Source: a phage | Length of the DNA stretch: 60,053 nt | Direction: 5' to 3' (one strand) | Assembly: GCA_012409925.1 (NCBI GenBank) | Contig: GCA_012409925.1_4804.1 | Part shown: one piece after another, positions 1,787 to 34,941 of the stretch | How positions within the stretch are numbered: the first letter of the stretch is position 1 | Layout: the number at the start of each line of letters is the position of its first letter | The notes under the pieces: model-generated | The model's input: only the letters and a program-made list of their open reading frames with translations | What the model was told of the DNA's origin: nothing | Databases searched by the model: none | Program-made: the position numbers and the translations under genes

Positions 1787-2511
1787 TCTATCATATCCCC
1801 AGTTCTGTTTCCAGGTCCGTTACCTATGTGCCCGTGAGTGGATACATTTGTGCCGCCGATTGTGGTGCCAGTCGGAAGCGTTGCCGTCGTTCCTTCTTTC
1901 CCTTCTATACCACCATTGAATGTTGCCTTTCCATTCACTATCAGTTGTTGGTCGATAGTGGTGATTGGTGTTTTCACGTTTACCCCAGCTGATGCGGTTA
2001 TGTTTATCGAGTCATCACTTAATGCAATTCGTACAGCGCCGCTGAGTGACTGAATTACCATTGAGCCTGCATCCTCTCCGCTTATGGTGTATTTTCGGAA
2101 TATATCCGGTATGAACAGTCCATCAGCGAAAGTTTTAACGCGACCATTGGTAGGCGCGGTCGGCTTCAATTCTTCAAGGAATGTCGACAACTCGCGGTCG
2201 CCAGCGAATATCCAGCCCAAATCACCTTCTTTCAAAGGAAAGTTGATTACAAAGCCGCCGCCGCCGATTGCCAATACAGGAATTGACACCAGAGGTTGAC
2301 GCTCCACTGGTTTATCATCAAGACTTACGAAATGAATAACAGGCTTTATGACTGCTAAATTCTGTTTGCGGTCATAAGATATTACTTGTGCAGGAATCAT
2401 GCCGTCAGTGGTATACTTGCCACGGTCCAGCATTCCCTGCAGCGCGGCAAACATACTTGATTTGTCAGTTTGGTTGGGGCTTGTAAGTTGAGTTAACTTC
2501 TCTGCCATCAT
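1783..2511 (-). CDS. baseplate central spike/hub-like protein
   Basis: ORF track frame; start moved to ATG at 2511 (AAGGAG RBS 3 nt upstream; track used TTG at 2535); Gly-rich central part and C-terminal beta-rich tail ending in a THGH His motif reminiscent of spike-tip domains. Confidence 0.4.
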   Translation of the reverse strand: MMAEKLTQLTSPNQTDKSSMFAALQGMLDRGKYTTDGMIPAQVISYDRKQNLAVIKPVIHFVSLDDKPVERQPLVSIPVLAIGGGGFVINFPLKEGDLGWIFAGDRELSTFLEELKPTAPTNGRVKTFADGLFIPDIFRKYTISGEDAGSMVIQSLSGAVRIALSDDSINITASAGVNVKTPITTIDQQLIVNGKATFNGGIEGKEGTTATLPTGTTIGGTNVSTHGHIGNGPGNRTGDMIE

Positions 2512-2568
2512 AGACTCCTTATATCTGATCAACAAATTATAATCTATAAGGAGTCTATAAGCAATATT

Positions 2569-3090
2569 TTAGCGATTTGACTTTGATTCTTTAATGGCAG
2601 CTTCGTTTGAGTAGGCTTCATTAAGTGATTTTGCTATTAGTCCATCAAACATAGCGAATGCATCACGCAATGAATAATATTCTTCCAATTCTTTTAACGA
2701 AGCAAGACCATTGTTTATTAGGCTTGCAACCATCGGCTCAAGATAATTAGGCTCTACGGTCGGGACGTCAGCCAAGAATCTATTTGGAATCTTAGTGCCT
2801 TTCCAATCACTGAGGAATCCAAAATTGTGCTTCTTTACCGCTTCCATTAGAACTTTCAATACAAGGTTGGGCGGCAAGTGATTTGGCACACTTTTCACTT
2901 CTTCACTGATGGCCTTCTCAGAGTTTAATCTGACTTTAGTTCCGTCATATTTAATAACATGACATTCACTTAATAATTCAAGTGGAGTTAATATGCTTAT
3001 CGCATCAACCATTTCAAACGCGTCTATTGCGCTGAATTGATGTATTTCATAAGTAACTCCAAACAGCTCAATTACTTTATTCTTTCTCAT
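2569..3090 (-). CDS. hypothetical tail/baseplate protein, 173 aa
   Basis: ORF track; tightly packed between tail genes. Confidence 0.45.
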   Translation of the reverse strand: MRKNKVIELFGVTYEIHQFSAIDAFEMVDAISILTPLELLSECHVIKYDGTKVRLNSEKAISEEVKSVPNHLPPNLVLKVLMEAVKKHNFGFLSDWKGTKIPNRFLADVPTVEPNYLEPMVASLINNGLASLKELEEYYSLRDAFAMFDGLIAKSLNEAYSNEAAIKESKSNR

Positions 3091-3092
3091 AT

Positions 3093-3965
3093 TTAGGCCG
3101 ATGGTGCAACGCCGCCCGTCACCGTAAATATATCATCACGACTTGCTAAATCATATTCAAGTTGCATGATGACAAATGTGGTGTCGTTCAAGCTTGGGTT
3201 TAAGACTGATTTGAATTTCACACCTTGGGCAAGCTTCAAATCCGCGTTATACATGCAAGTGAAGTCAGCACCCCACTCGTTCCACATCGGTATTCCGACA
3301 AATTCCTCAATCACCGTTATCTGTTCTGGATTCAGAATTTTGTCTTTATCCTTGACGATGAGCGTATCATCATCGATATATGCCGCAATAGAGTTCCTTT
3401 GATAGTTCTGAATCTCAAGCAACAAGGCGGCTGCAACATATGTTGTGCGGCCTGGGTTAACAAGGCGCTGATTGTTAATCGAAGTATCGCATATAACAGT
3501 ATCAATATCCATTTGCTTTGCCGACCACTCCACAAACTCTTTGAATGTTGGGTTTGACGGTGCAGCTTGAGTGATAAACTTAGTCCTGTTTATCTGGTTG
3601 GTGTAGCAAGTGATGCGTATGACGATGTTCGGCGGCGGCGCTGTTATCTCGACCGTTGTGACTTGCCCCTTGTAGACTAAGTTGCTACTAACAACGTTGC
3701 CTTCTCTATATCCAGCTTCAATTGTTACGTTGACATAATTCGCCGCCAATTGGCCTTGATCACGCAGACGTTTGTTGAATGCGGTGAAGTTGGAAAGCAG
3801 GTACTCTCTTAAGTACCCTGTCAATCCTGCGACTTCGATTGTGGCCTTATTTTGCACGGAAAGTGCTGCCTTTTTAATTCGGCATCTAAGCATCAATCCT
3901 TCATCAAGCACTTGGCTTGTGCCATCCGGCATAGATAAGGTGACTTTAAGGATTCTCTTTTTCAA
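3093..3965 (-). CDS. hypothetical tail protein, 290 aa (distal-tail/hub candidate)
   Basis: ORF track; immediately downstream of tape-measure gene, the usual place of distal tail/hub proteins. Confidence 0.4.
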   Translation of the reverse strand: MKKRILKVTLSMPDGTSQVLDEGLMLRCRIKKAALSVQNKATIEVAGLTGYLREYLLSNFTAFNKRLRDQGQLAANYVNVTIEAGYREGNVVSSNLVYKGQVTTVEITAPPPNIVIRITCYTNQINRTKFITQAAPSNPTFKEFVEWSAKQMDIDTVICDTSINNQRLVNPGRTTYVAAALLLEIQNYQRNSIAAYIDDDTLIVKDKDKILNPEQITVIEEFVGIPMWNEWGADFTCMYNADLKLAQGVKFKSVLNPSLNDTTFVIMQLEYDLASRDDIFTVTGGVAPSA

Positions 3966-3969
3966 ATTA

Positions 3970-6150
3970 TCACCACTTCAAAGGTGTAGCAGTAAGGTTG
4001 TTTATGTCGTTGATATCATCTTGTTCAAGCACTCGTTTCGTTTCGAATGCCGTGCTGCGTGGGTCTTGAGCGCCGTTGATGTTGATGACAACGTTTTTCT
4101 GACCCATAGTAATATCACGCCCACCAGGTCGACTATTCGCGGAAAGGTCGCCGCCGTATTTCTGGAATGCTTCAAGTTGGAATGCAGCAAGACGAGCGTT
4201 TTTCATAGCTTCGGCTTGAATGTTCGGTCTTACACCTGGAGTTGAAGCCAGTTGCATATTTTTAATATAATCCCTTTGCGTTCCAAGCTTAAGGTAAGTT
4301 TGAGCAAAGTCAATATCACCTTTGTTTACTTGTCCCTGCATCAACTGCTCAACTGGTACGTTCAGGTATCCTGCAATGGCTTCTTGCAATTGCCTGTATT
4401 GCACCGTTTGGCGCGATTGGCCTTGCACTGGTGCATAGCTGCCCTTTGGTGCTTCCGCTCCGCTACCGCTAAGTACTGGAGTGACTGGTGCACCTTGCGG
4501 CGCTGCCGTGGCATACTCACCATTGGATTGTCGGTCGAGAGCGGCCATGACCTTTCCAGGATAAGCGCGTGTATTCTTGCCCCAGCCGCTGCGGTCGTAG
4601 CCGCCGTGATACATCGTCAGCGCAAGATTCCAATCGCCGTTGGCAGCGTTTAAATACTCTTTCAACAGTTGAGCGCCGCCCATAATGTTTTGTCTAGGGT
4701 CGTTGCCGTCTGTGATGCCAAGACCCTTGAAGTTAGAAGGCATGATTTGCATCAAACCAGTCGCGCCTGCTCCGCTCACAGCATTTGGATTGAATCCAGA
4801 TTCGACTTCAGTTACAGCCTTCATCATTGCTACAGGTATGCCATAGCGTTTTGAAGCTTCCTCATATATTGAGTCATATGCTGTCGGATTCCCTGACCCA
4901 AGATTATTCCCTACGGTCGCGCCAGTATTCAATGCTGGTGTTCCAGGCATCGCGGATTGCCCTGCGCTGCGCCCGATTTCACCTGCCCATGCCGCCCAAG
5001 CTTGACGCTCATCAATCACGCCAGCAAAGGTTGACACAGCACTTGAAAAAAGATTTATATCACGAGTAAAAAGAGCCTGTGCAGAACGTTGTTCAGCGGC
5101 GTTCTGTTCTTGATTCCTTTGGCGTTTAACATCGCCATCAGCCATTTGGGTGATCCATCGGTCAACCGCTCTTTCGTGACGTTCGTTGACAGCGGCCTGC
5201 TTGTCGAACGGATGTTTCAAGTCAGCGATGAAGTTGTCGACAAATTCGCTCCATCCGTCAGACATTCTCTGAAACATCATCTGGAATCCTTCGACTGTAT
5301 CAGCAGTTTTGCTGACAAGAGTCGAGAATGCAGGCATGACATTTTCACCAATTACCAACTCAATACGCCGCCAATCTTCTTGAATTTGCCCCATACTATT
5401 TCGTATAGTCTCAAGAGCAGCTTGCTGTCTTTGCAGCTTCGCGGTTTCTTCGTCGCTTATGCGCGTGCTTTCTTTCACAGACTGGTTGCGCTCACGAAGG
5501 GCGCGGACTTCATCGGCGGTAAAACCTGCCAGAGCACCAATAGCACGAGCGGTTTGCTCATTCACACTTCTCAGCTTTGTTCCAATTTCATCAAGCAGCT
5601 GATTCGTGTCTTTGATGCCGCCGTTACTGTTGAAAGGACTTGTCCCCATCTTGTTCAACAACAAGTTGTCCTTGTTCATCACATCGGGGTTGGTGTATGC
5701 ATTGAATGCCAGATTAGAAGCTTTGCTGATTAAGTCTCGCGACCCCTGTGCGCCAAGGATGCCACCTGAACTTTCATTCAACTGTCGTTGTAGTTGTTCG
5801 ACACCCATTGGAGAGAGTCCGGCTTCAAAACCAAGCTTTCTTTGCGCTTCGTATTCTTTTCGAACATCAACGATGGATTTGACGACGACAGCCAATCCTG
5901 CGACAACAGGGACGAGCGCGGCAAAACGATATGTCAGCCGCGCAAGTATTCCGTCAATTGACCCTAGCTCACCAGTAAGCGGCTTTAGCTCGCCAAAAAC
6001 ATCTTTGAATGCTCCAGAGAAATCTTTGCCAGCGGATTTTGCCTTTTTGCTTGTCTGATCAACCTTATCTTGCAATTGCTCAAGACGATTGATGGACTCT
6101 TTCAAGTCCACCGTATATTGAAGCACAAATTTTTCTAATGAGTCAGACAC
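3970..6150 (-). CDS. tail tape-measure protein with internal lytic transglycosylase (SLT) domain
   Basis: 726 aa, coiled-coil-like N-terminal two thirds with a hydrophobic segment (LVPVVAGLAVVVKSIV); SLT signature ...AVTEVESGFNPNAVSGAGATGLMQIMP...TMYHGGY... at approx 4530-4875. Confidence 0.8.
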   Translation of the reverse strand: MSDSLEKFVLQYTVDLKESINRLEQLQDKVDQTSKKAKSAGKDFSGAFKDVFGELKPLTGELGSIDGILARLTYRFAALVPVVAGLAVVVKSIVDVRKEYEAQRKLGFEAGLSPMGVEQLQRQLNESSGGILGAQGSRDLISKASNLAFNAYTNPDVMNKDNLLLNKMGTSPFNSNGGIKDTNQLLDEIGTKLRSVNEQTARAIGALAGFTADEVRALRERNQSVKESTRISDEETAKLQRQQAALETIRNSMGQIQEDWRRIELVIGENVMPAFSTLVSKTADTVEGFQMMFQRMSDGWSEFVDNFIADLKHPFDKQAAVNERHERAVDRWITQMADGDVKRQRNQEQNAAEQRSAQALFTRDINLFSSAVSTFAGVIDERQAWAAWAGEIGRSAGQSAMPGTPALNTGATVGNNLGSGNPTAYDSIYEEASKRYGIPVAMMKAVTEVESGFNPNAVSGAGATGLMQIMPSNFKGLGITDGNDPRQNIMGGAQLLKEYLNAANGDWNLALTMYHGGYDRSGWGKNTRAYPGKVMAALDRQSNGEYATAAPQGAPVTPVLSGSGAEAPKGSYAPVQGQSRQTVQYRQLQEAIAGYLNVPVEQLMQGQVNKGDIDFAQTYLKLGTQRDYIKNMQLASTPGVRPNIQAEAMKNARLAAFQLEAFQKYGGDLSANSRPGGRDITMGQKNVVININGAQDPRSTAFETKRVLEQDDINDINNLTATPLKW

Positions 6151-22413: not shown

Positions 22414-23874
22414 TTAAAGGTTAGAGAAGAAGCCGGATGCTGCAACGATTGGTTTCATCAATGCCATGATTGCTGCGTCCGCTTTGTTAGGTGATTTGAC
22501 TCCACGCTTTGCCATATCCTTTTTGGATTCAACTTTGAACTTGCCAAGAACAGACGTATCTTTGCGCGGCGCTGACATCTCAAAAAGAAACGTCTCAATC
22601 TCTTCAGTAGTCCAAGCTGGAATCCCAAGTTCCGGTATGCCATCGGTGTCGATTGAAATCAATTCATCAGTCGGATATACGGCTTGCCCAGTCGCATACT
22701 CGTATGTCTTTCTGAATCGTTCCGCAATCTCAGTCCACTTTTGCGCTTTTATGTTTGCAAAATGGTCTTTATTGAGTATTTCAACGTGTGGTAGTTCAAG
22801 AAAAACGTCATCAGGATCATCAACAGACCCTTGCGCATTGAACGCATTAAATTCGATTCTTGGAAATGATGGATTTTCATGTATTGCATACTCGTTCAGT
22901 TCATCAAATTTTGAACCAGCAAAAGCGCCGACACCGATGGCATCATAAGTTATAGAAGCGCCAAATGTAAGCGCATCTTTCCAAACTCCGCTTGCCGATT
23001 TCAACAATTCATCTTCCAGACCTTCCCACGTCTTGATGCCACGTAATACGTTTCCTGTAACGAATGCAGTGGCATTAAGGTCGTCGCCATCGTCCGCTAC
23101 GTCAAAGCCTATACGGTTAGACCCTGACAAACTCCAGCCCAGCGTAGGGTGTTTGTGGAGATTAAGAGCGGCCTTAACGAATGCACGGTTGATTACAGAT
23201 TTATCGCCGCCAGTCTTCGGCACGCCGCCATAAACGTGCTCTGCCTTTTTCGGGTCGCGCTCGTACATGCCTGCAATAACGTCCAGCATCGTTTGCGACA
23301 AGAATGGGTTGTCTTGCCAGTTTATCTTTTTAACTATGGCATTCTTCGGCGGTCGCATAACAAAGTTTTGGTAGACGAAATCGGCCTCTTCATCAGGGTT
23401 AAAGATGATCCATATTTCTGACCCTTCTTTACGGATTGTCGGCTCAATAATGTCCCACTGTTCTTCAGTAAGTGCGTGCGCTTCTTCCAGCCAAAGAACA
23501 TCAACACCTTCCGTTGATTTAATTTCATCAACGTTACGTGCGATACCGTAAAATAGAAATTCAGATTTAGTTCTTTTATGCTCGATAGAGTTCTTTAATA
23601 AATTGAACTCATCTTTAAAATCAGAAATCTCTATTTTATCTTTTAATAGAGTATATACAGATTCAGAAATCTTGTTCTGGAATTGTCGAACGCAAAGGAA
23701 TTTTAATTTGAAGTTTGCCGCCAAATAAATAGCAAAACCAGCGGCATCGTGCGATTTGGAAGATGCACGACCGCCGTATATTACTTTGTATCGCGCTTTT
23801 GTCTTCCAGACTTCTTTTAAAGCAGGATTCAACTGGTACATGACTTTCCAATTACGTGTTAATATTTTATTCAT
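22414..23874 (-). CDS. terminase large subunit
   Basis: 486 aa; N-terminal P-loop ...KVIYGGRASSKS...; acidic nuclease-like C-terminal half; alternative start at 23841 (Met12) has a better RBS. Confidence 0.8.
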   Translation of the reverse strand: MNKILTRNWKVMYQLNPALKEVWKTKARYKVIYGGRASSKSHDAAGFAIYLAANFKLKFLCVRQFQNKISESVYTLLKDKIEISDFKDEFNLLKNSIEHKRTKSEFLFYGIARNVDEIKSTEGVDVLWLEEAHALTEEQWDIIEPTIRKEGSEIWIIFNPDEEADFVYQNFVMRPPKNAIVKKINWQDNPFLSQTMLDVIAGMYERDPKKAEHVYGGVPKTGGDKSVINRAFVKAALNLHKHPTLGWSLSGSNRIGFDVADDGDDLNATAFVTGNVLRGIKTWEGLEDELLKSASGVWKDALTFGASITYDAIGVGAFAGSKFDELNEYAIHENPSFPRIEFNAFNAQGSVDDPDDVFLELPHVEILNKDHFANIKAQKWTEIAERFRKTYEYATGQAVYPTDELISIDTDGIPELGIPAWTTEEIETFLFEMSAPRKDTSVLGKFKVESKKDMAKRGVKSPNKADAAIMALMKPIVAASGFFSNL

Positions 23875-29403: not shown

Positions 29404-29445
29404 GTGAATCGTGGGTCGTGGGTCGTGGGTCGTGGGTCGTGGGTC
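29404..29445. repeat. perfect heptamer tandem repeat (GTGGGTC)x5 preceded by one degenerate unit GTGAATC
   Basis: Direct reading: units at 29411, 29418, 29425, 29432, 29439. Confidence 0.95.
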
Positions 29446-29467
29446 GCTTAGTGCGGCCCTTTATTTT
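29441..29467 (+). terminator. rho-independent terminator overlapping last repeat unit
   Basis: GGGTCGC-ttagt-GCGGCCC (one mismatch) followed by TTTATTTT. Confidence 0.45.
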
Positions 29468-30062
29468 GCCTGCCGCGCAGGAGTGTACTGCAAATTTCCT
29501 GTGGGTACAAAATAGTACGGTACTGTCTAGGACTTTTTCTTTGAAAGTTAGTGGACCAAATGTGTCGTATTTTGATTAGTGTACCGCAAATTCCATCAAG
29601 TACCAAAACGCACCAAAAGACCCATGCCATAAAAACCACACGAACGCAATAATCAATCGCCGTTACAGTTTCCAGCGTTACAATTCGAAAGCGAATGATT
29701 CGACGCATAATAATATGAAGCATAATGATTCGAAAGCGAACGATTGCGTGTAGGATAATATCGGTGGGGATTATTCTAGATGCATGTAATTTCGCATGCG
29801 TACTATTTTCGGACGAAGGGTCGGCATATTCCTCGTTTTAGTTCGGAACGAAGGGAAAGTTTTGCGCCTTTATAAAACAACGACTTACGCGACCCGCCCT
29901 AACGGTCCGATATAGGTGTCTATATAAAACAAGGACTTACACGATGTTCTCCATTTAACGTAATACCTGTTATGCGAACTAAGGCGCATCTCGACGAAGA
30001 TTATGCGACGACGAAGGGAAGGATAAAGGAGTTTTCGCGGAGAAGCGCATCGAGATAGGGAC

Positions 30063-30733: not shown

Positions 30734-31036
30734 TTATTCTGCGATAAAATATTTATAAGCCTTATCGCCTTCTACGTCGATATACTCGACGATAATTAAC
30801 GCTTCGCCGCGCGGCGTAACCGTCTCGATAAGGGTAACGGCTTCGTCGTCGGTCTTCGCGAATCGGATTGCGCTACGTTCGGCGTATTTAATTTCGTCGA
30901 AGGAGAGGCCGACGAAAGCGACGGCGCGGACCTTAATGGCGCTAGATTCTAGTTCCGCGTTAACGGCGGCGATAAGAGAGCGAACGGTTAAGCGGTCTTC
31001 GTCGTAAGTAAGGATAGAAGAGATTAAAGTGGTCAT
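30734..31036 (-). CDS. small acidic protein, 100 aa
   Basis: ORF track frame; start at ATG 31036 (GGGAG RBS); no His/Cys/Trp/Gln; TAA stop. Confidence 0.55.
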   Translation of the reverse strand: MTTLISSILTYDEDRLTVRSLIAAVNAELESSAIKVRAVAFVGLSFDEIKYAERSAIRFAKTDDEAVTLIETVTPRGEALIIVEYIDVEGDKAYKYFIAE

Positions 31037-31093
31037 AATAAAACTCCCGATGCTATTAGAAGGAAGGGCCATCGCCCGTCTCGATATAAACAA

Positions 31094-31121
31094 GTATACG
31101 CGAGTGTACGAAGAAGTAAAG
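31094..31121 (-). promoter_or_regulatory. near-consensus sigma70-type promoter (island copy 2)
   Basis: Minus strand reads CTTTACT-16 nt-TATACT with the same TTCTTCGTACAC spacer core as copy 1. Confidence 0.5.
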
Positions 31122-31165
31122 AAAAAAAGATAAAATAATTTATCGCATTTTTATCGAAAAAGTGC

Positions 31166-31193
31166 TTTACTTTTTTCTACACTATATTATAAT
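31166..31193 (+). promoter_or_regulatory. near-consensus sigma70-type promoter (island copy 3)
   Basis: AGTGCTTTACT-16 nt-TATAAT; -35 at 31166-31171, -10 at 31188-31193; shares GTGCTTTACT and TACACT with copies 1 and 2. Confidence 0.55.
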
Positions 31194-31261
31194 GTACTCA
31201 TATCGGGACGGGATGAGTTAACGAATAGGTCGTTAACGCCTCTCCCAACTAGGAGTTTAAA

Positions 31262-31546
31262 ATGGCTATTCTTAACGTTTCTTCTATCCGTAACGCTATC
31301 GTCGAGAACTACGGCGTAAAACAAATTTTATCCGAAGTCTACGCCGCGAACGTAGACCAAACTATCGAGGCGGGTGGGGTAACGGTCGCCGAGGCTTTTA
31401 AACTTTACGCGGCGTTACCGGAATCGGACCGCGAAGCCTTCGAAGTAAACGTTAACGGATATTTCTTCGAAGCGGTCGAAATCGGTAATATCTTACTCGT
31501 TATGGGCGAAGAAGAATTTGAGACCTTCTCCCTCGTCGAAGCGTAA
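31262..31546 (+). CDS. small acidic protein, 94 aa, paralogue of 30336..30626
   Basis: ORF track; AGGAG RBS; net charge about -15; no His/Cys/Trp. Confidence 0.6.
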   Translation: MAILNVSSIRNAIVENYGVKQILSEVYAANVDQTIEAGGVTVAEAFKLYAALPESDREAFEVNVNGYFFEAVEIGNILLVMGEEEFETFSLVEA

Positions 31547-31626
31547 GAGAGGATTTTTAGAGCGTCGTGCGCGGCGCTTTAATAAAATTCTTTCGCGCCT
31601 AGCGCCCTAACAAATAGGAGTTTATT

Positions 31627-32253
31627 ATGGTTAGCTTAAATCGTTTCTCGACTAGCGGCGACGTTATCGCAACTAAGACCGCCGACCTCGTTGCATTTTA
31701 TAATGCAAATTCCGGTTCGAAGCCGATTAAGAAATTTGCGGACCGCCGGACCGCCGAGACTCGCGTAATCGCGTTAATCGAGTCCTTAAACGCGCTCGAT
31801 GAGCCATCCAATGAATCGCCCATTCCCGACGCGAAGCCGCGCGAGGAAGTGTCCAGCGATGTAAAAACGCATAAGGCGCGTGCGGTCGTTAAAAAGGCTG
31901 AGCCGACCCAGGAAGAACTCGACGCGATGAGCGATGAAGAATATGAAGCCTTCGTTAAGAGCGGCTTAAACGATAGTGCAAATTGCGTAGTACAAAATGG
32001 AACTCCTTCCCATCGCCGTTCGAATAGCGAAGGTATTGCAAAAAGTTGGGATAATAAGGAAGTGGCGCAAAAGCGTCTTACCCGTAACGGCGTTATGGTC
32101 GAGGGTGTAGGCGAGTTCAAATCGGTCCGCGCAGCATTCGCCGCGCTGGGCTTACCGGACAGCAAGCATATTCGCTTCCGCATGAAGCTTAAAGAAGCTG
32201 GACGCTTGAACTTCGAGTTCGGCAACAAGTCCTTCACCTTCCAGATTATCTAA
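31627..32253 (+). CDS. hypothetical protein, 208 aa
   Basis: ORF track; AGGAG RBS; composition switches mid-gene from the island dialect to ordinary coding. Confidence 0.5.
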   Translation: MVSLNRFSTSGDVIATKTADLVAFYNANSGSKPIKKFADRRTAETRVIALIESLNALDEPSNESPIPDAKPREEVSSDVKTHKARAVVKKAEPTQEELDAMSDEEYEAFVKSGLNDSANCVVQNGTPSHRRSNSEGIAKSWDNKEVAQKRLTRNGVMVEGVGEFKSVRAAFAALGLPDSKHIRFRMKLKEAGRLNFEFGNKSFTFQII

Positions 32254-32260
32254 TCAAATG

Positions 32261-32285
32261 GCGGCCCTTCGAGGTCGCTTTTCAT
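32261..32285 (+). terminator. terminator-like hairpin
   Basis: GCGGCC-cttcga-GGTCGC (one G-U pair) followed by TTTTCAT. Confidence 0.35.
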
Positions 32286-32303
32286 AGTGCAAATTGGTGG
32301 CTT

Positions 32304-32567
32304 ATGAACACGCTTATTCTCATCGCTACGTTGTCCATCGGAAGTGGTCGCACCTTATCGCTGTACGACCATAGTGCAAATTGCGCTTACCCTACGCGCG
32401 TTGCGGCAATAGTTAATAGTGCAAATCGAATGCTATTCGAGACTTGTTGGCGGGTCGATAACGAGAAAGGGCGCATCATCTTAGGTTATAGTGCGAATCT
32501 GCTGGTGGAGTCGTTCGATTGGACGGTTGAAGGTCGTAAATTGTTACGTAAGGTGACTAAAAGATGA
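32304..32567 (+). CDS. hypothetical protein, 87 aa (carries three in-frame motif copies)
   Basis: ORF track; GGTGG RBS; ATAGTGCAAAT-type motif occurs three times in frame as Ser-Ala-Asn, so coding status is uncertain. Confidence 0.35.
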   Translation: MNTLILIATLSIGSGRTLSLYDHSANCAYPTRVAAIVNSANRMLFETCWRVDNEKGRIILGYSANLLVESFDWTVEGRKLLRKVTKR

Positions 32568-32681
32568 CTTATAATAATACACTTTCTAACGCGTTTATGG
32601 TTGTAACCTTCCCCGTCGTATTACCGATGGCCCTAGAAGTGGAGAAAATGTGTTCTAGGGCCGTTTTATAGTGCAAATTGG

Positions 32682-33155
32682 CTAGTGGCGGGAGAATTGC
32701 TCGCCTTCTTTGGCCGCCTCTCCGAAATCCTTGTAGAAATCGTCCATGGAACGGCCCATTTTACTATTGCCGTTTTCATCAATCATCGTGATGCCGTAGA
32801 TGATGTTCAGTTCACGAATAGCATTAAGCTTGGCTGACGCCGCGACTTCTGGATCACGCACAAGCTTGACCAAATTGTGAATTGCACCTTTTACGCTCCA
32901 CAAATCCTTGAGTGGCATCTCTTCCATACGCTTTTTGAAGCGCATCTTGTAGTATGGATTGCGTTGCGTGCAAAGGATTCGCTGGCCAGTGTAGTTATCC
33001 GTTGCAACTTCCATTCCAAATACTAGTGCAAAAGCTGCGCGCATGTCATGGCCCTGAATAACAAGGTCAATGAACTCATCGAATAAAGCCTGATTGTGCT
33101 CTGCAAATCGCGGGTCTTCAAAGTCTTCAGGCATCGCTACATAATCTTGACTCAT
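32682..33155 (-). CDS. hypothetical protein, 157 aa (small-terminase candidate, speculative)
   Basis: ORF track frame from ATG 33155 (MSQDYVAMPEDFEDPRF...); ordinary codon usage; start codon abuts three tandem motif copies. Confidence 0.4.
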   Translation of the reverse strand: MSQDYVAMPEDFEDPRFAEHNQALFDEFIDLVIQGHDMRAAFALVFGMEVATDNYTGQRILCTQRNPYYKMRFKKRMEEMPLKDLWSVKGAIHNLVKLVRDPEVAASAKLNAIRELNIIYGITMIDENGNSKMGRSMDDFYKDFGEAAKEGEQFSRH

Positions 33156-33280
33156 AGTGCAAAATCCCATAGTGCAAATTAATAGTGTGAATTATACAAT
33201 GGATGGACATTATATTCAAGTGCAGATTGATGTTCATTATGGCTATAAACATACACAAATCATAGTGCTGAATGAATAGC

Positions 33281-33874
33281 GGACCGTGGTGCGTGGTGTA
33301 CTGTTTGATACGTATAAAATAAATCCATCCCTTTTGCCGCTTGTTATGCAAATCAATGACTTAGCCGCTGCTGGCTGGTTGAAGCGTATCATGACGTATC
33401 ATCCGTATTGCCGCAAGTCTTTGTTTTTACTTATATCTTACGGATAATACGTATAAATATAAGTTTAGTATAAGTATGAGGATGTAGAAAAAAAATTAAT
33501 TTAAATGTTTTTAAAATGGAGTTAATTAATTTTTAGAATTATTCTGGTTACAATAAGAAAAAATGGCGTATCATCCGTATCATCCGTATGAGTGTACCAG
33601 TAGAATCCAGGCGCGGCGCACCTTACAGCCATGATACGTCTCAATACGGCCAAAAACCTATCCGTAAGAGTGTACGCATCAACCAAAGAATCCAGGCGCG
33701 GCGCACTCTTCCACACCACACACCACGGTTCAATCTCCAAAATCCACACACTAAAAGTCACAATCACCGTATCATTCTCCAAAAATAAATCCAAATTTCC
33801 ATTTTATTTATTATTTTCATCCACAATATCCTAAATTCCATCCGTATCAACCAAGCCTCAACCCACCACGGTCC
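33281..33874. repeat. iteron cluster B: ATCCGTATC-type repeats, 19-bp direct repeat and AT-rich block, bracketed by 11-bp inverted repeat
   Basis: GCGTATCATCCGTATCATCCGTA at 33567-33589 identical to 17181-17203; further copies at 33385-33410, 33437-33457, 33631-33649, 33659-33668, 33766-33777 and 33841-33851; GAATCCAGGCGCGGCGCAC at 33603 and 33688; GGACCGTGGTG (33281) / CACCACGGTCC (33864). Confidence 0.8.
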
Positions 33875-33982
33875 ACGCCACTCACTTCAAAATTTCCATC
33901 AAAAACGACAAAAGGCCGCATAAAGCGACCAATTGTACACGTCCCATTATTCAAAACACGTAAAACAGTGTCCGTTTATTTG

Positions 33983-34519
33983 CTACAATTTAGGCATTAA
34001 TCCTTTGTCAATCCGTCTTTTTATCTCTTCCTCTATCATTTTATTGGTGACTTTATAACCAATCCTTTCTAATTCCAGCAATACTTCCTTTTGGTGTTTC
34101 TTTATTTTTACAATGTCAACCGTATCCCTCCAATAAGATAATACCTTCTTAATGATTTCCTTTTCCATTTTATATCTGGCAGTTGTCATGTATTTCATTT
34201 TAAATATAGAGTTGATTGCGTCAGTCTTCAACCACTCGCCTCTCAACTCAGGGTGATCATCCCAAAGAGCTATGGCAAACTCTTGCGGGCTTTTACATCT
34301 TTTTCTAAGCTCAATTATATAGTCGACCGTTTTCGTTTTCTTATCCAACCTTGCGCGGCAAACTTTGCACTCTTCCTTGAGTAACCATTCAGCCTTATTA
34401 CTTTGCGACGCTGATTCATTATCCCTTCTGTAGCTGCCGCATATACTTATTCCTTCATTATCCAAGAAGTAATGCAAGTCTTTAGAGTATTTAGCTTTAC
34501 GCCAAAAGCCGCCCATCAC
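33983..34519 (-). CDS. hypothetical Lys-rich protein, 178 aa
   Basis: ORF track; AT-rich codon usage differing from neighbours. Confidence 0.45.
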   Translation of the reverse strand: MMGGFWRKAKYSKDLHYFLDNEGISICGSYRRDNESASQSNKAEWLLKEECKVCRARLDKKTKTVDYIIELRKRCKSPQEFAIALWDDHPELRGEWLKTDAINSIFKMKYMTTARYKMEKEIIKKVLSYWRDTVDIVKIKKHQKEVLLELERIGYKVTNKMIEEEIKRRIDKGLMPKL

Positions 34520-34941
34520 GCCTCCTTAACGACCCGATAAGCAACAATCTTTGCACCAGTCGGGCTTGTGACTTTATCCCATGTCAAACTATCCGAAGGA
34601 ACAGCACATTTTGATTTATAACCGTTGAGTAATTCAAACTCAACCATCTTCCCAGGCACCGGATTCGCGCCACCAAACCACACAGTCCACGCTTCCTCCT
34701 TCGGCGCATCATCATCCACGCCTATAGTAGCAACAACGTCGTGCAACTGCTTAACAAGCACCGATGCATCACGGACCTGTGAGCGTAATGCAACCAACTC
34801 GCGTTGCGCTTCACTATATTTCGCTTCCAGCGCGGCATAGTCCTCATATGCAACAAAACGTCCTTCGTGACTTTCTGGAACAGGAGTGATGTCGAAATCT
34901 TCTGTCGCCACATCGTATGTCAGATCATAACGTTGTACCAT
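34516..34941 (-). CDS. hypothetical early protein sharing C-terminal module with 36076..36585
   Basis: ORF track; C-terminus ...NPVPGKMVEFELLNGYKSKCAVPSDSLTWDKV...IVAYRVV. Confidence 0.5.
   Translation of the reverse strand: MVQRYDLTYDVATEDFDITPVPESHEGRFVAYEDYAALEAKYSEAQRELVALRSQVRDASVLVKQLHDVVATIGVDDDAPKEEAWTVWFGGANPVPGKMVEFELLNGYKSKCAVPSDSLTWDKVTSPTGAKIVAYRVVKEA

What the first reader, a model, noticed from the sequence alone, without database searches (positions are those of the whole stretch)
31973..33274. Ten same-orientation copies of ATAGTGCAAATTG within 1.3 kb
Copies start at 31973, 32284, 32371, 32417, 32488, 32668, 33154, 33169, 33182 and 33262 (last four degenerate: ..GCAAAAT.., ..GTGAATT.., ..GCTGAAT..). 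They occur inside ORFs (three in frame as Ser-Ala-Asn in 32304..32567), after terminators and abutting the start codon of 32682..33155, so this is a DNA-level signal. Candidates: packaging (pac) recognition repeats for a small terminase, replication iterons, a centromere-like partition site, or promoters for a non-host polymerase. Gene 32682..33155, which the array brackets, is a possible small-terminase candidate, although the large terminase lies 10 kb away.
Basis: partly seen in the sequence, partly recalled or inferred. Interest (0 to 1): 0.75.

Follow-up and report, generated by a model that had tools for sequence, protein, structure and literature searches.

The report
Co-oriented DNA repeats around small-terminase gene
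A short DNA word (ATAGTGCAAAT) is repeated about a dozen times, always in the same direction, around the small-terminase gene inside the terminal repeat of this E. coli phage (a Wifcevirus); it is most likely a recognition signal for the DNA-packaging machinery, but binding has not been shown and a replication-origin role is not excluded.

Summary
ATAGTGCAAATTG has 4 exact copies (0.01 expected). With near copies there are 9 strong and 4 weak sites, all on the + strand, between 31700 and 33274. No strong site occurs elsewhere in the window or in a complete related genome.

The window is a Wifcevirus. The array lies in the ~3.9 kb direct terminal repeat, 255-1820 bp from the physical left end (window 33517). 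ORF 32682..33155 is on the minus strand and is a true small terminase (E=7e-34 to the solved E217 TerS). One copy overlaps its start codon and one ends a base before its stop codon.

The same core (TTTGCACTAY on the terS strand), with the same orientation and position, occurs in Pantoea phages Kyle and PA1 and in three metagenomic relatives (TerS about 42-48% identical to this one). There it is interspersed with correctly oriented Chi sites. It is absent from Serratia, Pseudomonas, Xanthomonas, Burkholderia and Aeromonas relatives.

Best reading (~0.4): a packaging-linked TerS recognition array that also sits as operators on the terS promoter. Main rival (~0.2): origin iterons, because TTTGCACTAC is the core of 22-23 bp iterons in many unrelated viral replication-initiator genes; but no such initiator is found here and the spacing is irregular. 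Phage-polymerase promoters and a partition site are rejected.

The parts
31973..31985 (+). Motif copy, exact (ATAGTGCAAATTG), inside the g004 linker region
   Evidence: Absent in ECML-117 and RCIP0319, so this copy is dispensable.
31987..31998 (+). Degenerate copy (GTAGTACAAAAT; GTAGTGCAAAAT in most relatives), 14 bp after the previous copy
31700..31712 (+). Weak copy (ATAATGCAAATTC), scoring 17 bits on the weight matrix
32284..32296 (+). Motif copy, exact, directly after the g004 terminator hairpin and 8 nt before the g003 ATG
   Evidence: Conserved in 13 of 13 Wifcevirus genomes.
32371..32383 (+). Motif copy, exact, inside g003
32416..32428 (+). Motif copy with 1 mismatch, inside g003. The homologous codons of Kyle g2 (NSAN) also carry a copy.
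32488..32500 (+). Motif copy (ATAGTGCGAATCT) inside g003, abutting the only Chi site of the terminal repeat
32501..32508 (+). Chi site GCTGGTGG, oriented to act on RecBCD entering at the terS-proximal genome end
   Evidence: Chi orientation rule taken from established RecBCD knowledge.
32668..32680 (+). Motif copy, exact, between the terminator hairpin and the terS stop codon (ends 1 nt before it)
32682..33155 (-). terS, the small terminase (157 aa)
   Evidence: phmmer E=7e-34 to PDB 7UXE, the E217 TerS. Foldseek probability 1.0 to 7uxe_A. Mansfield annotation.
33023..33034 (+). Weak conserved copy (CTAGTGCAAAAG) inside terS, antisense
33154..33194 (+). Three tandem copies (33154, 33169, 33182; spacing 15 and 13 bp) filling the terS 5' UTR; the first overlaps the start codon
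33191..33219 (-). Sigma-70-like promoter TTGAAT-17-TATAAT for terS, immediately upstream of the three tandem copies
   Evidence: (consensus match only) and reading
33262..33274 (+). Degenerate copy (ATAGTGCTGAATG)
   Evidence: 11 bits
32304..32567 (+). g003, a small protein with a signal-peptide-like N-terminus that carries 3 copies; homologous to Kyle g2
   Evidence: 27% identity, E=8e-11
31627..32253 (+). g004, a conserved 208-aa protein of the terminal repeat, with a SAP-like N-terminus and a conserved C-terminal domain
   Evidence: Detected by mass spectrometry in vB_Eco4M-7 (PMC7048862).
29616..33517 (.). Direct terminal repeat. The physical left end is at 33517, reading downward. The inner boundary is ~29616 by the Mansfield/Kyle offset, or ~29536 by the WFC record.
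29573..29594 (-). Element at the right boundary of the repeat, GGAATTTGCGGTACACTAATCA. Its 12-mer GTACACTAATCA is unique per genome and lies 32-33 bp beyond the repeat end in Mansfield and Kyle.
33334..33414 (-). Elements near the left end: GCGGCAA three times (+104, +150, +178 from the end) and an IHF-like AATCAATGACTTA (33351-33363, + strand)
33384..33590 (-). TACGGAT(GATACG) repeats flanking the left end (33590-33565 outside the repeat, 33410-33384 inside, one inverted copy around 33450-33436)

Best explanation
The array is a cis-acting, DNA-level set of binding sites belonging to the genome-end and packaging region of a phage with direct terminal repeats. Most likely the sites are recognition sites for the phage's own small terminase (TerS), whose gene they bracket.

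Proposed mechanism (inferred, not shown). TerS, a ring oligomer with N-terminal helix-turn-helix domains and a wide basic channel in its solved E217 homologue, recognises the asymmetric word TTTGCACTAT, read on the terS strand. About a dozen co-oriented copies lie 255-1820 bp inside the physical left end. These would mark the terminal repeat of the concatemer as phage DNA, fix the polarity of the terminase complex, and raise the chance that the terminase is captured or armed near the precise cut sites at the repeat boundaries. This is the same logic by which the interspersed Chi arrays in related phages raise the chance that RecBCD is stopped.

In Wifcevirus, three tandem copies lie between the -10 box of the terS promoter and the terS start codon. 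They would additionally let TerS repress its own synthesis.

Shown: the array, its uniqueness in the genome, its strict polarity, its position in the terminal repeat next to the end, the TerS identity of the gene, and conservation of core, orientation and position in a second genus.

Inferred: that TerS is the binder, and what binding does.
For: 1. The motif is unique to this 1.6 kb and strictly co-oriented.
2. The bracketed gene is a bona fide TerS.
3. The region lies in the direct terminal repeat. terS starts ~360 bp from the physical end in WFC, Mansfield and Kyle, and ~390 bp in MyoSmar.
4. In Kyle, PA1, L244, L247 and L248 (TerS about 42-48% identical to this one) the same core runs on the same strand from mid-terS to ~1.1 kb downstream. 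In Kyle, GCACTAY occurs 11 times in 450-1500 against 0.09 expected.
5. Individual copies are not at homologous positions and fall in different reading frames and in non-coding DNA. Copy number and orientation are conserved, not position.
6. TerS of all motif-bearing lineages has an invariant Arg65 preceded by Gln, Lys or Arg. The five lineages without the motif have Glu or Asp followed by Ser, Phe or Ala. These residues end helix 56-65 of the confidently modelled N-terminal domain.
7. g004, the other conserved protein of the repeat, shows no clade-specific change. No other clade-specific DNA-binding protein was found.
8. In several classical phages the packaging site lies in or beside terS (PMC9611059).
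9. Overexpressed E217 TerS reduces burst size (same review), which fits the operator-like triple site on the terS promoter.
10. HK97 TerS threads DNA through its ring and slides while reading sequence (PMC11331095). This gives a precedent for a reader that would benefit from a polar multi-copy array.
Against: 1. No binding data exist. E217 TerS showed no appreciable DNA binding in vitro.
2. Relatives with a homologous TerS (Pbunavirus, Myosmarvirus, XcP1, Maja, Gekk3-15) have no such array.
3. Other repeats lie much closer to the left-end cut and look more like lambda cosB. These are lineage-specific TACGGAT or ATATCCGAA repeats at -190 to +133, GCGGC(A/T)A at +104 to +235 in every genus examined, and an IHF-like site at +93 to +167.
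4. The core is unchanged while TerS diverges to about 43% identity. This is less expected for a co-evolving pair than for a host-fixed word or a very conserved binder.
5. The 10-mer core is identical to a widespread replication-iteron core.
6. The Arg65 correlation is confounded by phylogeny, because it defines a single clade.
7. The triple site on the terS promoter is absent from Kyle.
Confidence: 0.4

Rival explanations
1. Replication-origin or initiator-binding iterons. The copies would bind a phage replication protein and nucleate initiation inside the terminal repeat, for example for early replication or for duplicating the repeat at concatemer junctions.
For: A scan of viral contigs for two close copies of TTTGCACTAY found 14 loci with 3-6 copies at 22-23 bp spacing. 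A composition-matched control 10-mer gave only coding-type spacings, multiples of 3, and no iteron-type locus. Where ORFs were called (8 loci), the arrays lie inside genes for replication-initiator-type proteins. Six of the eight proteins scanned match Pfam HTH_36, DnaD_N or Phage_rep_O. One array adjoins a DnaA box (L129). Others are followed by DnaC-like or primase-helicase genes. The 10-11 bp core is identical to the Kyle and Wifcevirus motif. An AT-rich stretch (33190-33520) adjoins the tandem triple. The phage encodes a RepB-type primase and a VapE-type primase-helicase. In relatives, that helicase gene sits next to the terS upstream region, which carries other short repeats.
Against: Spacing is irregular (13 to 355 bp between successive copies) rather than helically phased. 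No HTH_36, Phage_rep_O or DnaD_N domain was found among 76 non-structural Bas99 proteins, and none appeared in a six-frame search with an HMM of the initiator N-terminal domains. hhalign found no relation of TerS or g004 to that domain. No DnaA box lies in the repeat. In Wifcevirus the primase-helicase gene is ~8 kb away.
Confidence: 0.2
2. Operator sites for a transcription regulator other than TerS, or for TerS acting only as a regulator. These would control genes of the terminal repeat, including terS.
For: Three tandem copies occupy the interval between the -10 box of a good sigma-70-like promoter and the terS start codon. One copy lies 8 nt upstream of the g003 start codon.
Against: Most copies lie inside ORFs or antisense to them. 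Kyle has none at its terS promoter. Strict co-orientation across convergent genes is not expected for operators. No candidate regulator was found.
Confidence: 0.12
3. A polar recombination or end-protection signal read by a translocating enzyme, analogous to Chi. It would act together with or instead of Chi at the genome end, for instance to promote recombination between terminal repeats and so form concatemers.
For: In Kyle, PA1, L244, L247 and L248 the motif is interspersed with, and sometimes abuts, 2-9 exact Chi sites. All of these are oriented for RecBCD entering at the terS-proximal end. The two arrays share the same layout: polar, irregular in spacing and indifferent to coding. Wifcevirus has the motif but only one Chi; MyoSmar has Chi but no motif.
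Against: The word bears no resemblance to E. coli Chi. No known E. coli or phage helicase-nuclease reads it (my own knowledge, not a test). No RecBCD- or AddAB-like enzyme is apparent in the phage. Co-location is equally explained if both signals simply need to be near the end.
Confidence: 0.1
4. Promoters for a phage-specific RNA polymerase or sigma factor, or an RNA-level motif in the g005-g003 transcript.
For: Two copies directly follow terminator hairpins. All copies would lie on one long + strand transcript if the terminators were read through.
Against: No phage RNA polymerase or sigma family was among the 25 of 29 Pfam families listed. Copies are not upstream of genes in a consistent direction. 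Four lie beyond two terminators, antisense to or upstream of terS. Rfam found nothing.
Confidence: 0.04

Closest known systems
Lambda cosB (gpNu1 R-sites with an IHF site) beside cosN and the Nu1 gene
   Same: Both have several short TerS-type sites between the genome end and the terS gene or overlapping it. Both place terS first after the left end. An IHF-like site lies between the end and the sites.
   Different: cosB is ~120 bp long with 3 sites, close to the cut. Here there are ~13 sites over 1.6 kb, starting 255 bp from the end, all co-oriented and mostly downstream of terS. The ends are a 3.9 kb direct repeat rather than cohesive ends. The TerS fold family is that of E217, not gpNu1.
pac sites inside or next to terS in headful packagers (P22, SPP1 pacL/pacR, Sf6; PMC9611059)
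   Same: Both are asymmetric recognition sequences within or flanking the terS gene, unique in the genome.
   Different: Those phages cut imprecisely and package by the headful mechanism. This family has exact ends with a long direct repeat (PhageTerm annotation). The number of sites and their spread are much larger here.
HK97 TerS:cos complex (PMC11331095)
   Same: It offers a ring TerS that threads DNA and slides while monitoring sequence, that is, a reader for which polar signals make sense. E217-type TerS has a channel wide enough for duplex DNA (PMC9611059).
   Different: HK97 has one minimal site at cos. No multi-copy array has been described there. Threading has not been shown for the E217 family.
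Iterons inside HTH_36 / Phage_rep_O / DnaD_N initiator genes (lambda O-type origins)
   Same: The 10-11 bp core ATTTGCACTAC is identical. Both are direct repeats. Copies fall in coding DNA in two reading frames, encoding SA(K/N) and VVQ.
   Different: True iterons are 4-6 tandem units at 22-23 bp spacing inside the initiator's own gene. Here spacing is irregular over 1.6 kb and no such initiator is encoded.
Chi (GCTGGTGG) arrays for RecBCD
   Same: Both are strictly polar, multi-copy, irregularly spaced and indifferent to coding. Both are concentrated in the first 2 kb from the same genome end in the Kyle-like relatives.

Membership tests
Terminase (TerS) recognition site of pac/cosB type | Lies within or beside the terS gene and near a packaging cleavage site | tested here: met
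   The copies bracket terS. They lie 255-1820 bp from the physical left end at 33517, inside the direct terminal repeat.
Terminase (TerS) recognition site of pac/cosB type | Unique in the genome | tested here: met
   Strong matrix hits occur only here in the window and in the complete Bas99 genome. The same holds in Kyle.
Terminase (TerS) recognition site of pac/cosB type | Specifically bound by the cognate TerS | not testable with these tools
   No binding data exist. E217 TerS did not bind DNA appreciably in vitro (PMC9611059).
Terminase (TerS) recognition site of pac/cosB type | Required in cis for packaging | not testable with these tools
   This needs plasmid-transduction or mutant-genome assays.
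Terminase (TerS) recognition site of pac/cosB type | Presence or sequence co-varies with TerS across lineages | tested here: inconclusive
   The motif is present in 6 lineages whose TerS has Arg65 and absent from 5 lineages without it. However, the motif-bearing lineages form one clade, and the core does not change while TerS diverges to about 43% identity.
Replication-origin iterons | Direct repeats of one orientation with a conserved core | tested here: met
   The core is identical to iterons in HTH_36 / Rep_O genes.
Replication-origin iterons | Regular, helically phased tandem spacing (~22 bp) | tested here: not met
   Spacings between successive copies are 14, 297, 87, 45, 72, 180, 355, 131, 14-15 and 13 bp.
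Replication-origin iterons | Cognate initiator encoded next to or around the repeats | tested here: not met
   No HTH_36, Rep_O or DnaD_N domain was found among 76 proteins, in six-frame ORFs or by hhalign.
Replication-origin iterons | Adjacent AT-rich unwinding element and/or DnaA boxes | tested here: inconclusive
   An AT-rich stretch lies at 33190-33520 (GC 0.39 for 33001-34000), but there is no DnaA box in the repeat.
Phage-polymerase or phage-sigma promoters | Placed upstream of genes in the direction of transcription, with a phage RNA polymerase or sigma factor encoded | tested here: not met
   Copies lie inside ORFs and antisense to terS. No RNA polymerase or sigma family was among the 25 of 29 Pfam families listed.
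Centromere-like partition site (parS) | Cognate ParA/ParB-type genes and a plasmid-like lifestyle | tested here: not met
   No such family appeared. Wifcevirus phages are lytic myoviruses (PMC11990801).
Chi-type polar signal read by a translocase | Strict co-orientation relative to a DNA end, with irregular spacing independent of coding | tested here: met
Chi-type polar signal read by a translocase | A known translocating enzyme that recognises the word | not testable with these tools
   The word is not E. coli Chi, and no reader is known.

The most novel reading that the evidence does not exclude
The array is a new kind of packaging signal: a Chi-like, polar, multi-copy word read by a TerS ring (or the whole terminase) while it slides or translocates along concatemeric DNA. 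Each copy would give a modest chance of capture, and a dozen copies would make capture near-certain. Capture inside the terminal repeat would switch the terminase to precise cutting at the repeat boundaries. The right boundary carries a unique related element, AATTTGC-AGTAC-ACTAATCA. On this reading the array is part of how a long direct terminal repeat is measured and generated, which is still unexplained for phages with long terminal repeats.
Probability: 0.15. Interest if true: 0.8.

Novelty: new variant of a known kind. Interest (0 to 1): 0.55.

Why it matters
How small terminases recognise viral DNA is a long-standing open question (PMC9611059, PMC11331095). How long direct terminal repeats are cut and duplicated is also poorly understood (my own knowledge of the field; no paper read here addresses it).

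The E217-type TerS has a solved structure but no known DNA target. It showed no DNA binding in vitro, and the reviewers speculated that it has a T4-like strategy without a packaging site. This array offers a concrete, testable candidate target for a 42%-identical member of that family. An E. coli phage of this genus can already be rebuilt from PCR fragments (PMC11074155), so cis-mutants are feasible.

If the array turns out to be an origin instead, it would locate the unknown origin of a phage group noted for a very short latent period (PMC11990801). It would also show that an iteron word is shared with unrelated initiator families.

Tried and rejected
1. Conservation of motif columns against flanking columns in 13 Wifcevirus genomes: 12.5% versus 18.2% variable, p=0.2. 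Divergence is too low to be informative.
2. Avoidance of the 7-mer core elsewhere in the genome: not significant in Bas99 or Kyle. The zero count in the window alone is not robust.
3. Literature search for the sequence words returned only primers and unrelated hits.
4. No paper on Wifcevirus, WFC or vB_Eco4M-7 describes the repeats or a packaging site.
5. De novo k-mer search for an equivalent array in PS44, MyoSmar, XcP1, Maja and Gekk3-15 found nothing comparable. It found only Chi in MyoSmar, GCGATAGTTA five times upstream of terS in Maja, and other small repeats.
7. Gene-content subtraction (Wifcevirus and Kyle, minus MyoSmar) yielded no recognisable DNA-binding protein.
8. The 42-nt-spaced TTTGCACTAT arrays in L035, L065, L102, L051 and L103 carry no TerS homologue. 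Their 42-nt period (14 codons) and extended conserved unit suggest protein-coding repeats, so I treated them as irrelevant.
9. Resemblance to DnaA boxes, sigma-54 -12 elements and the phage tf nick consensus was considered from memory and dismissed after aligning by eye.
10. Rfam found nothing.
Full report
**Observation**

The 13-mer ATAGTGCAAATTG occurs exactly four times (31973, 32284, 32371, 32668), all on the + strand. By chance 0.01 copies are expected. Allowing mismatches adds 32416, 32488, 33154 and 33169, and degenerate copies at 33182 and 33262.

Comparison with 12 other genomes shows three more weak but conserved copies, at 31700, 31987 and 33023. A weight matrix from the eight strong copies gives 17-25 bits only here. 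The best score elsewhere is 12.5 bits in the 60 kb window and 13 bits in the complete 68,355 bp genome of phage Bas99. All nine + strand RTAGTGC heptamers of the window lie in 31650-33300.

**What the region is**

The window is a Wifcevirus, an E. coli myovirus of the WFC / ECML-117 / Mansfield group. It is 90-97% identical to 29 phage records over 31000-34600. These phages have direct terminal repeats of about 3.7 kb (PMC6563267; PhageTerm feature in Mansfield).

The WFC record carries both repeat copies (3784 bp). WFC and Mansfield start at the same base, which maps to window 33517, reading downward. The inner boundary maps to about 29536 by WFC. It maps to about 29616 if one uses the offset that Mansfield and Kyle share relative to a unique 12-mer. 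The array therefore lies inside the terminal repeat, 255-1820 bp from a physical genome end.

It matches the solved small terminase of Pseudomonas phage E217 (PDB 7UXE) with E=7e-34. Its AF2 model has that structure as its only significant match. Mansfield's annotators also called it terS.

The motif at 33154 overlaps the terS start codon, and the motif at 32668-32680 ends one base before its stop codon. A sigma-70-like promoter (TTGAAT-17-TATAAT, 33219..33191) lies directly upstream of three tandem copies that fill the 5' UTR. TerL is at 23841..22417.

**Conservation**

Within Wifcevirus, seven strong copies and two weak ones (terS-relative -871 to +27) are present in 13 of 13 genomes. The two or three copies in g004 are missing from ECML-117 and RCIP0319. 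Divergence inside the genus is too low for a column-wise selection test.

The informative comparison is with Pantoea phage Kyle (TerS 43% identical). There T[TC]GCACTA[CT] occurs seven times, all on the terS strand, at 580-1476. It occurs nowhere else in 60 kb of the genome examined. GCACTAY occurs 11 times in 450-1500 against 0.09 expected. An unbiased 9-mer enumeration ranks TTTGCACTA first in both phages.

Pantoea phage PA1 has 11 copies. Metagenomic relatives L244, L247 and L248 repeat the pattern: same strand, from mid-terS to about 1.1 kb downstream.

Only one copy is at a homologous codon position (NSAN in g003 and Kyle g2). The rest have turned over, and they fall in two reading frames and in non-coding DNA. 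Selection is therefore on a DNA word, its number and its polarity.

Relatives with a homologous TerS but a different host range have no such array. These are MyoSmar, Pbunavirus PS44, XcP1, Maja and Gekk3-15.

**Who might read it**

TerS is the obvious candidate. All six motif-bearing lineages have an invariant Arg65 preceded by Gln, Lys or Arg. The five lineages without the motif have an acidic residue followed by Ser, Phe or Ala. These residues end helix 56-65 of the confidently modelled N-terminal helical domain. This is suggestive only, because the motif-bearing lineages form one clade.

The other conserved protein of the repeat is g004 (208 aa). It was detected by mass spectrometry in vB_Eco4M-7. 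It has a SAP-like N-terminus, and many homologues carry a zinc ribbon. It has no clade-specific residues and occurs in lineages without the motif. Subtracting MyoSmar's gene content from the genes shared by Wifcevirus and Kyle leaves no recognisable DNA-binding protein.

**The iteron lead**

I scanned 2.9 million viral contigs for two nearby TTTGCACTAY copies. This returned the Wifcevirus contigs and also 14 loci with 3-6 copies at 22-23 bp spacing. Where I called ORFs (8 loci), the arrays sit inside genes whose products carry an N-terminal winged-helix-type domain. Six of eight such proteins match Pfam HTH_36, DnaD_N or Phage_rep_O. In one case the array adjoins a DnaA box, and in others it is followed by DnaC-like or primase-helicase genes. 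This is the lambda-O arrangement of iterons inside the initiator gene.

A composition-matched control 10-mer returned a similar number of stretches, but with spacings that are multiples of three and no iteron-type locus. TTTGCACTAC is therefore a recurrent iteron core, and the identity with the Kyle and Wifcevirus word is unlikely to be chance.

Against an origin here:
- Spacing is irregular.
- No HTH_36, Rep_O or DnaD_N domain appears among 76 non-structural proteins.
- None appears in six-frame ORFs searched with an HMM of the initiator domain or by profile comparison.
- There is no DnaA box in the repeat.

I keep the origin reading as the main rival.

**Other end-proximal signals**

Closer to the left end there are lineage-specific short repeats:
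- TACGGAT in Wifcevirus, at about -190, -75, -66, +75 (inverted) and +110.
- ATATCCGAA in Kyle, at -128, -55 and +107.
- TTATATCGG and AACCGTTT in L247 and PA1.

There is also a pan-family GCGGC(A/T)A, one to three copies at +104 to +235 in every genus including Pbunavirus. An IHF-like consensus lies at +93 to +167 in five of seven lineages. These look more like a cosB-type site than the array does, and they lower my confidence that the array is the primary terminase site.

At the other boundary, the 12-mer GTACACTAATCA is unique per genome. It lies 32-33 bp beyond the repeat end in Mansfield and Kyle. Its context, AATTTGC-AGTAC-ACTAATCA, resembles the motif with five extra bases. That resemblance is a lead, not a result.

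**Chi**

In Kyle, PA1 and L244, seven to nine exact Chi sites lie in the first 2 kb. L247 and L248 have two or three in about 1 kb, and MyoSmar has four. All are oriented to act on RecBCD entering at the terS-proximal end, and they are interspersed with the motif. The window has one, at 32501, abutting a motif copy.

The two arrays share a layout that is polar, irregular and indifferent to coding. That layout is typical of words read by a moving enzyme. HK97 TerS threads DNA and slides while reading sequence (PMC11331095), and E217 TerS has a channel wide enough for duplex DNA (PMC9611059). This motivates the more novel reading given separately.

**Verdict**

The array is a real, conserved, DNA-level, polar signal in the terminal repeat.

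I rank the explanations as follows:
- A packaging-linked TerS recognition array, with autoregulatory operators in Wifcevirus: about 0.4.
- Origin iterons: about 0.2.
- Operators for another regulator: about 0.12.
- A recombination or end-processing polar signal: about 0.1.
- Promoter or RNA-level motif: about 0.04.

I found no description of this array in the papers I could search.

Noticed in passing
L004 (Kyle) 255-1972; L243 (PA1) 3361-4933; L244 5873-7570; L006 (MyoSmar) 2107-2447; window 32501-32508: Clusters of exact Chi sites (CCACCAGC on the terS strand) lie in the first ~2 kb of the terminal repeat: 9 in Kyle, 7 in PA1, 7 in L244, 4 in MyoSmar. All are oriented to stop RecBCD entering at the terS-proximal end. 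In Kyle, 9 of 11 top-strand Chi sites of the genome are there. The window has only one.
   Followed up: partly
window 29573-29594 (- strand) and 29480-29499; Mansfield record 3705; Kyle 3636; L244 9047: The 12-mer GTACACTAATCA is unique in each genome and lies 32 bp (Mansfield) or 33 bp (Kyle) beyond the annotated end of the terminal repeat. It is probably part of the right-end cleavage signal. The repeat boundary in the WFC record differs from this by ~80 bp. A second, weaker copy lies ~95 bp further out in Wifcevirus.
   Followed up: partly
window 33334-33414, 33351-33363, 33384-33590: The left physical end (33517) is flanked by TACGGAT(GATACG) repeats, three GCGGCAA copies at +104, +150 and +178, and an IHF-like AATCAATGACTTA. 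GCGGC(A/T)A at +104 to +235 recurs in Kyle, MyoSmar, PS44, L247 and L248. IHF-like sites recur at +93 to +167 in 5 of 7 lineages. This is a candidate cosB-like region for the whole phage family.
   Followed up: partly
L060 7456-7546, L101 6611-6678, L061 3457-3524, L113, L063, L129 1380-1425 and others: TTTGCACTAC is the core of 22-23 bp iterons embedded in genes of the HTH_36 / DnaD_N / Phage_rep_O replication-initiator type in many unrelated viral contigs. The repeats encode GSAK..VVQNL peptide repeats. L129 has an adjacent DnaA box.
   Followed up: partly
L005 (PS44) 602-1171 and 2458-3840: In Pbunavirus PS44, whose record starts at the physical end, terS and terL are only ~1.3 kb apart. 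The '~58 kb apart, opposite side of the genome' stated for E217 (PMC9611059) may therefore reflect where that record was opened rather than a real separation. I did not locate terL in the E217 record itself.
   Followed up: partly
window 31627-32253 (g004): A conserved protein of the terminal repeat, found in all genera examined. It has a SAP/Rho-N-like N-terminal helix pair, an acidic linker and a conserved alpha/beta C-terminal domain. Many homologues insert a CxxC...CxxC zinc ribbon. It was detected by mass spectrometry in vB_Eco4M-7, and tagging it reduces plaque yield. Its function is unknown.
   Followed up: partly
window ~29410-29450 (- strand): A tandem heptamer, CCCACGA repeated 5 times, lies just outside the inner boundary of the terminal repeat.
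   Followed up: no
window 33686-33703 and 33603-33620 (- strand): An 18-bp direct repeat, GCGCCGCGCCTGGATTCT, occurs twice, 83 bp apart, in the unique sequence just before the left end.
   Followed up: no
L247 1-360, L248 1-376: Two short metagenomic contigs begin ~360-376 bp upstream of terS, the same distance as the physical end in WFC, Mansfield and Kyle. The assemblies probably broke at the true genome terminus.
   Followed up: no
L019 (Maja) 3030-3290: Burkholderia phage Maja has five copies of GCGATAGTTA(A) between its primase-helicase gene and terS, plus one after terS. This may be a lineage-specific counterpart of an end or origin signal.
   Followed up: no
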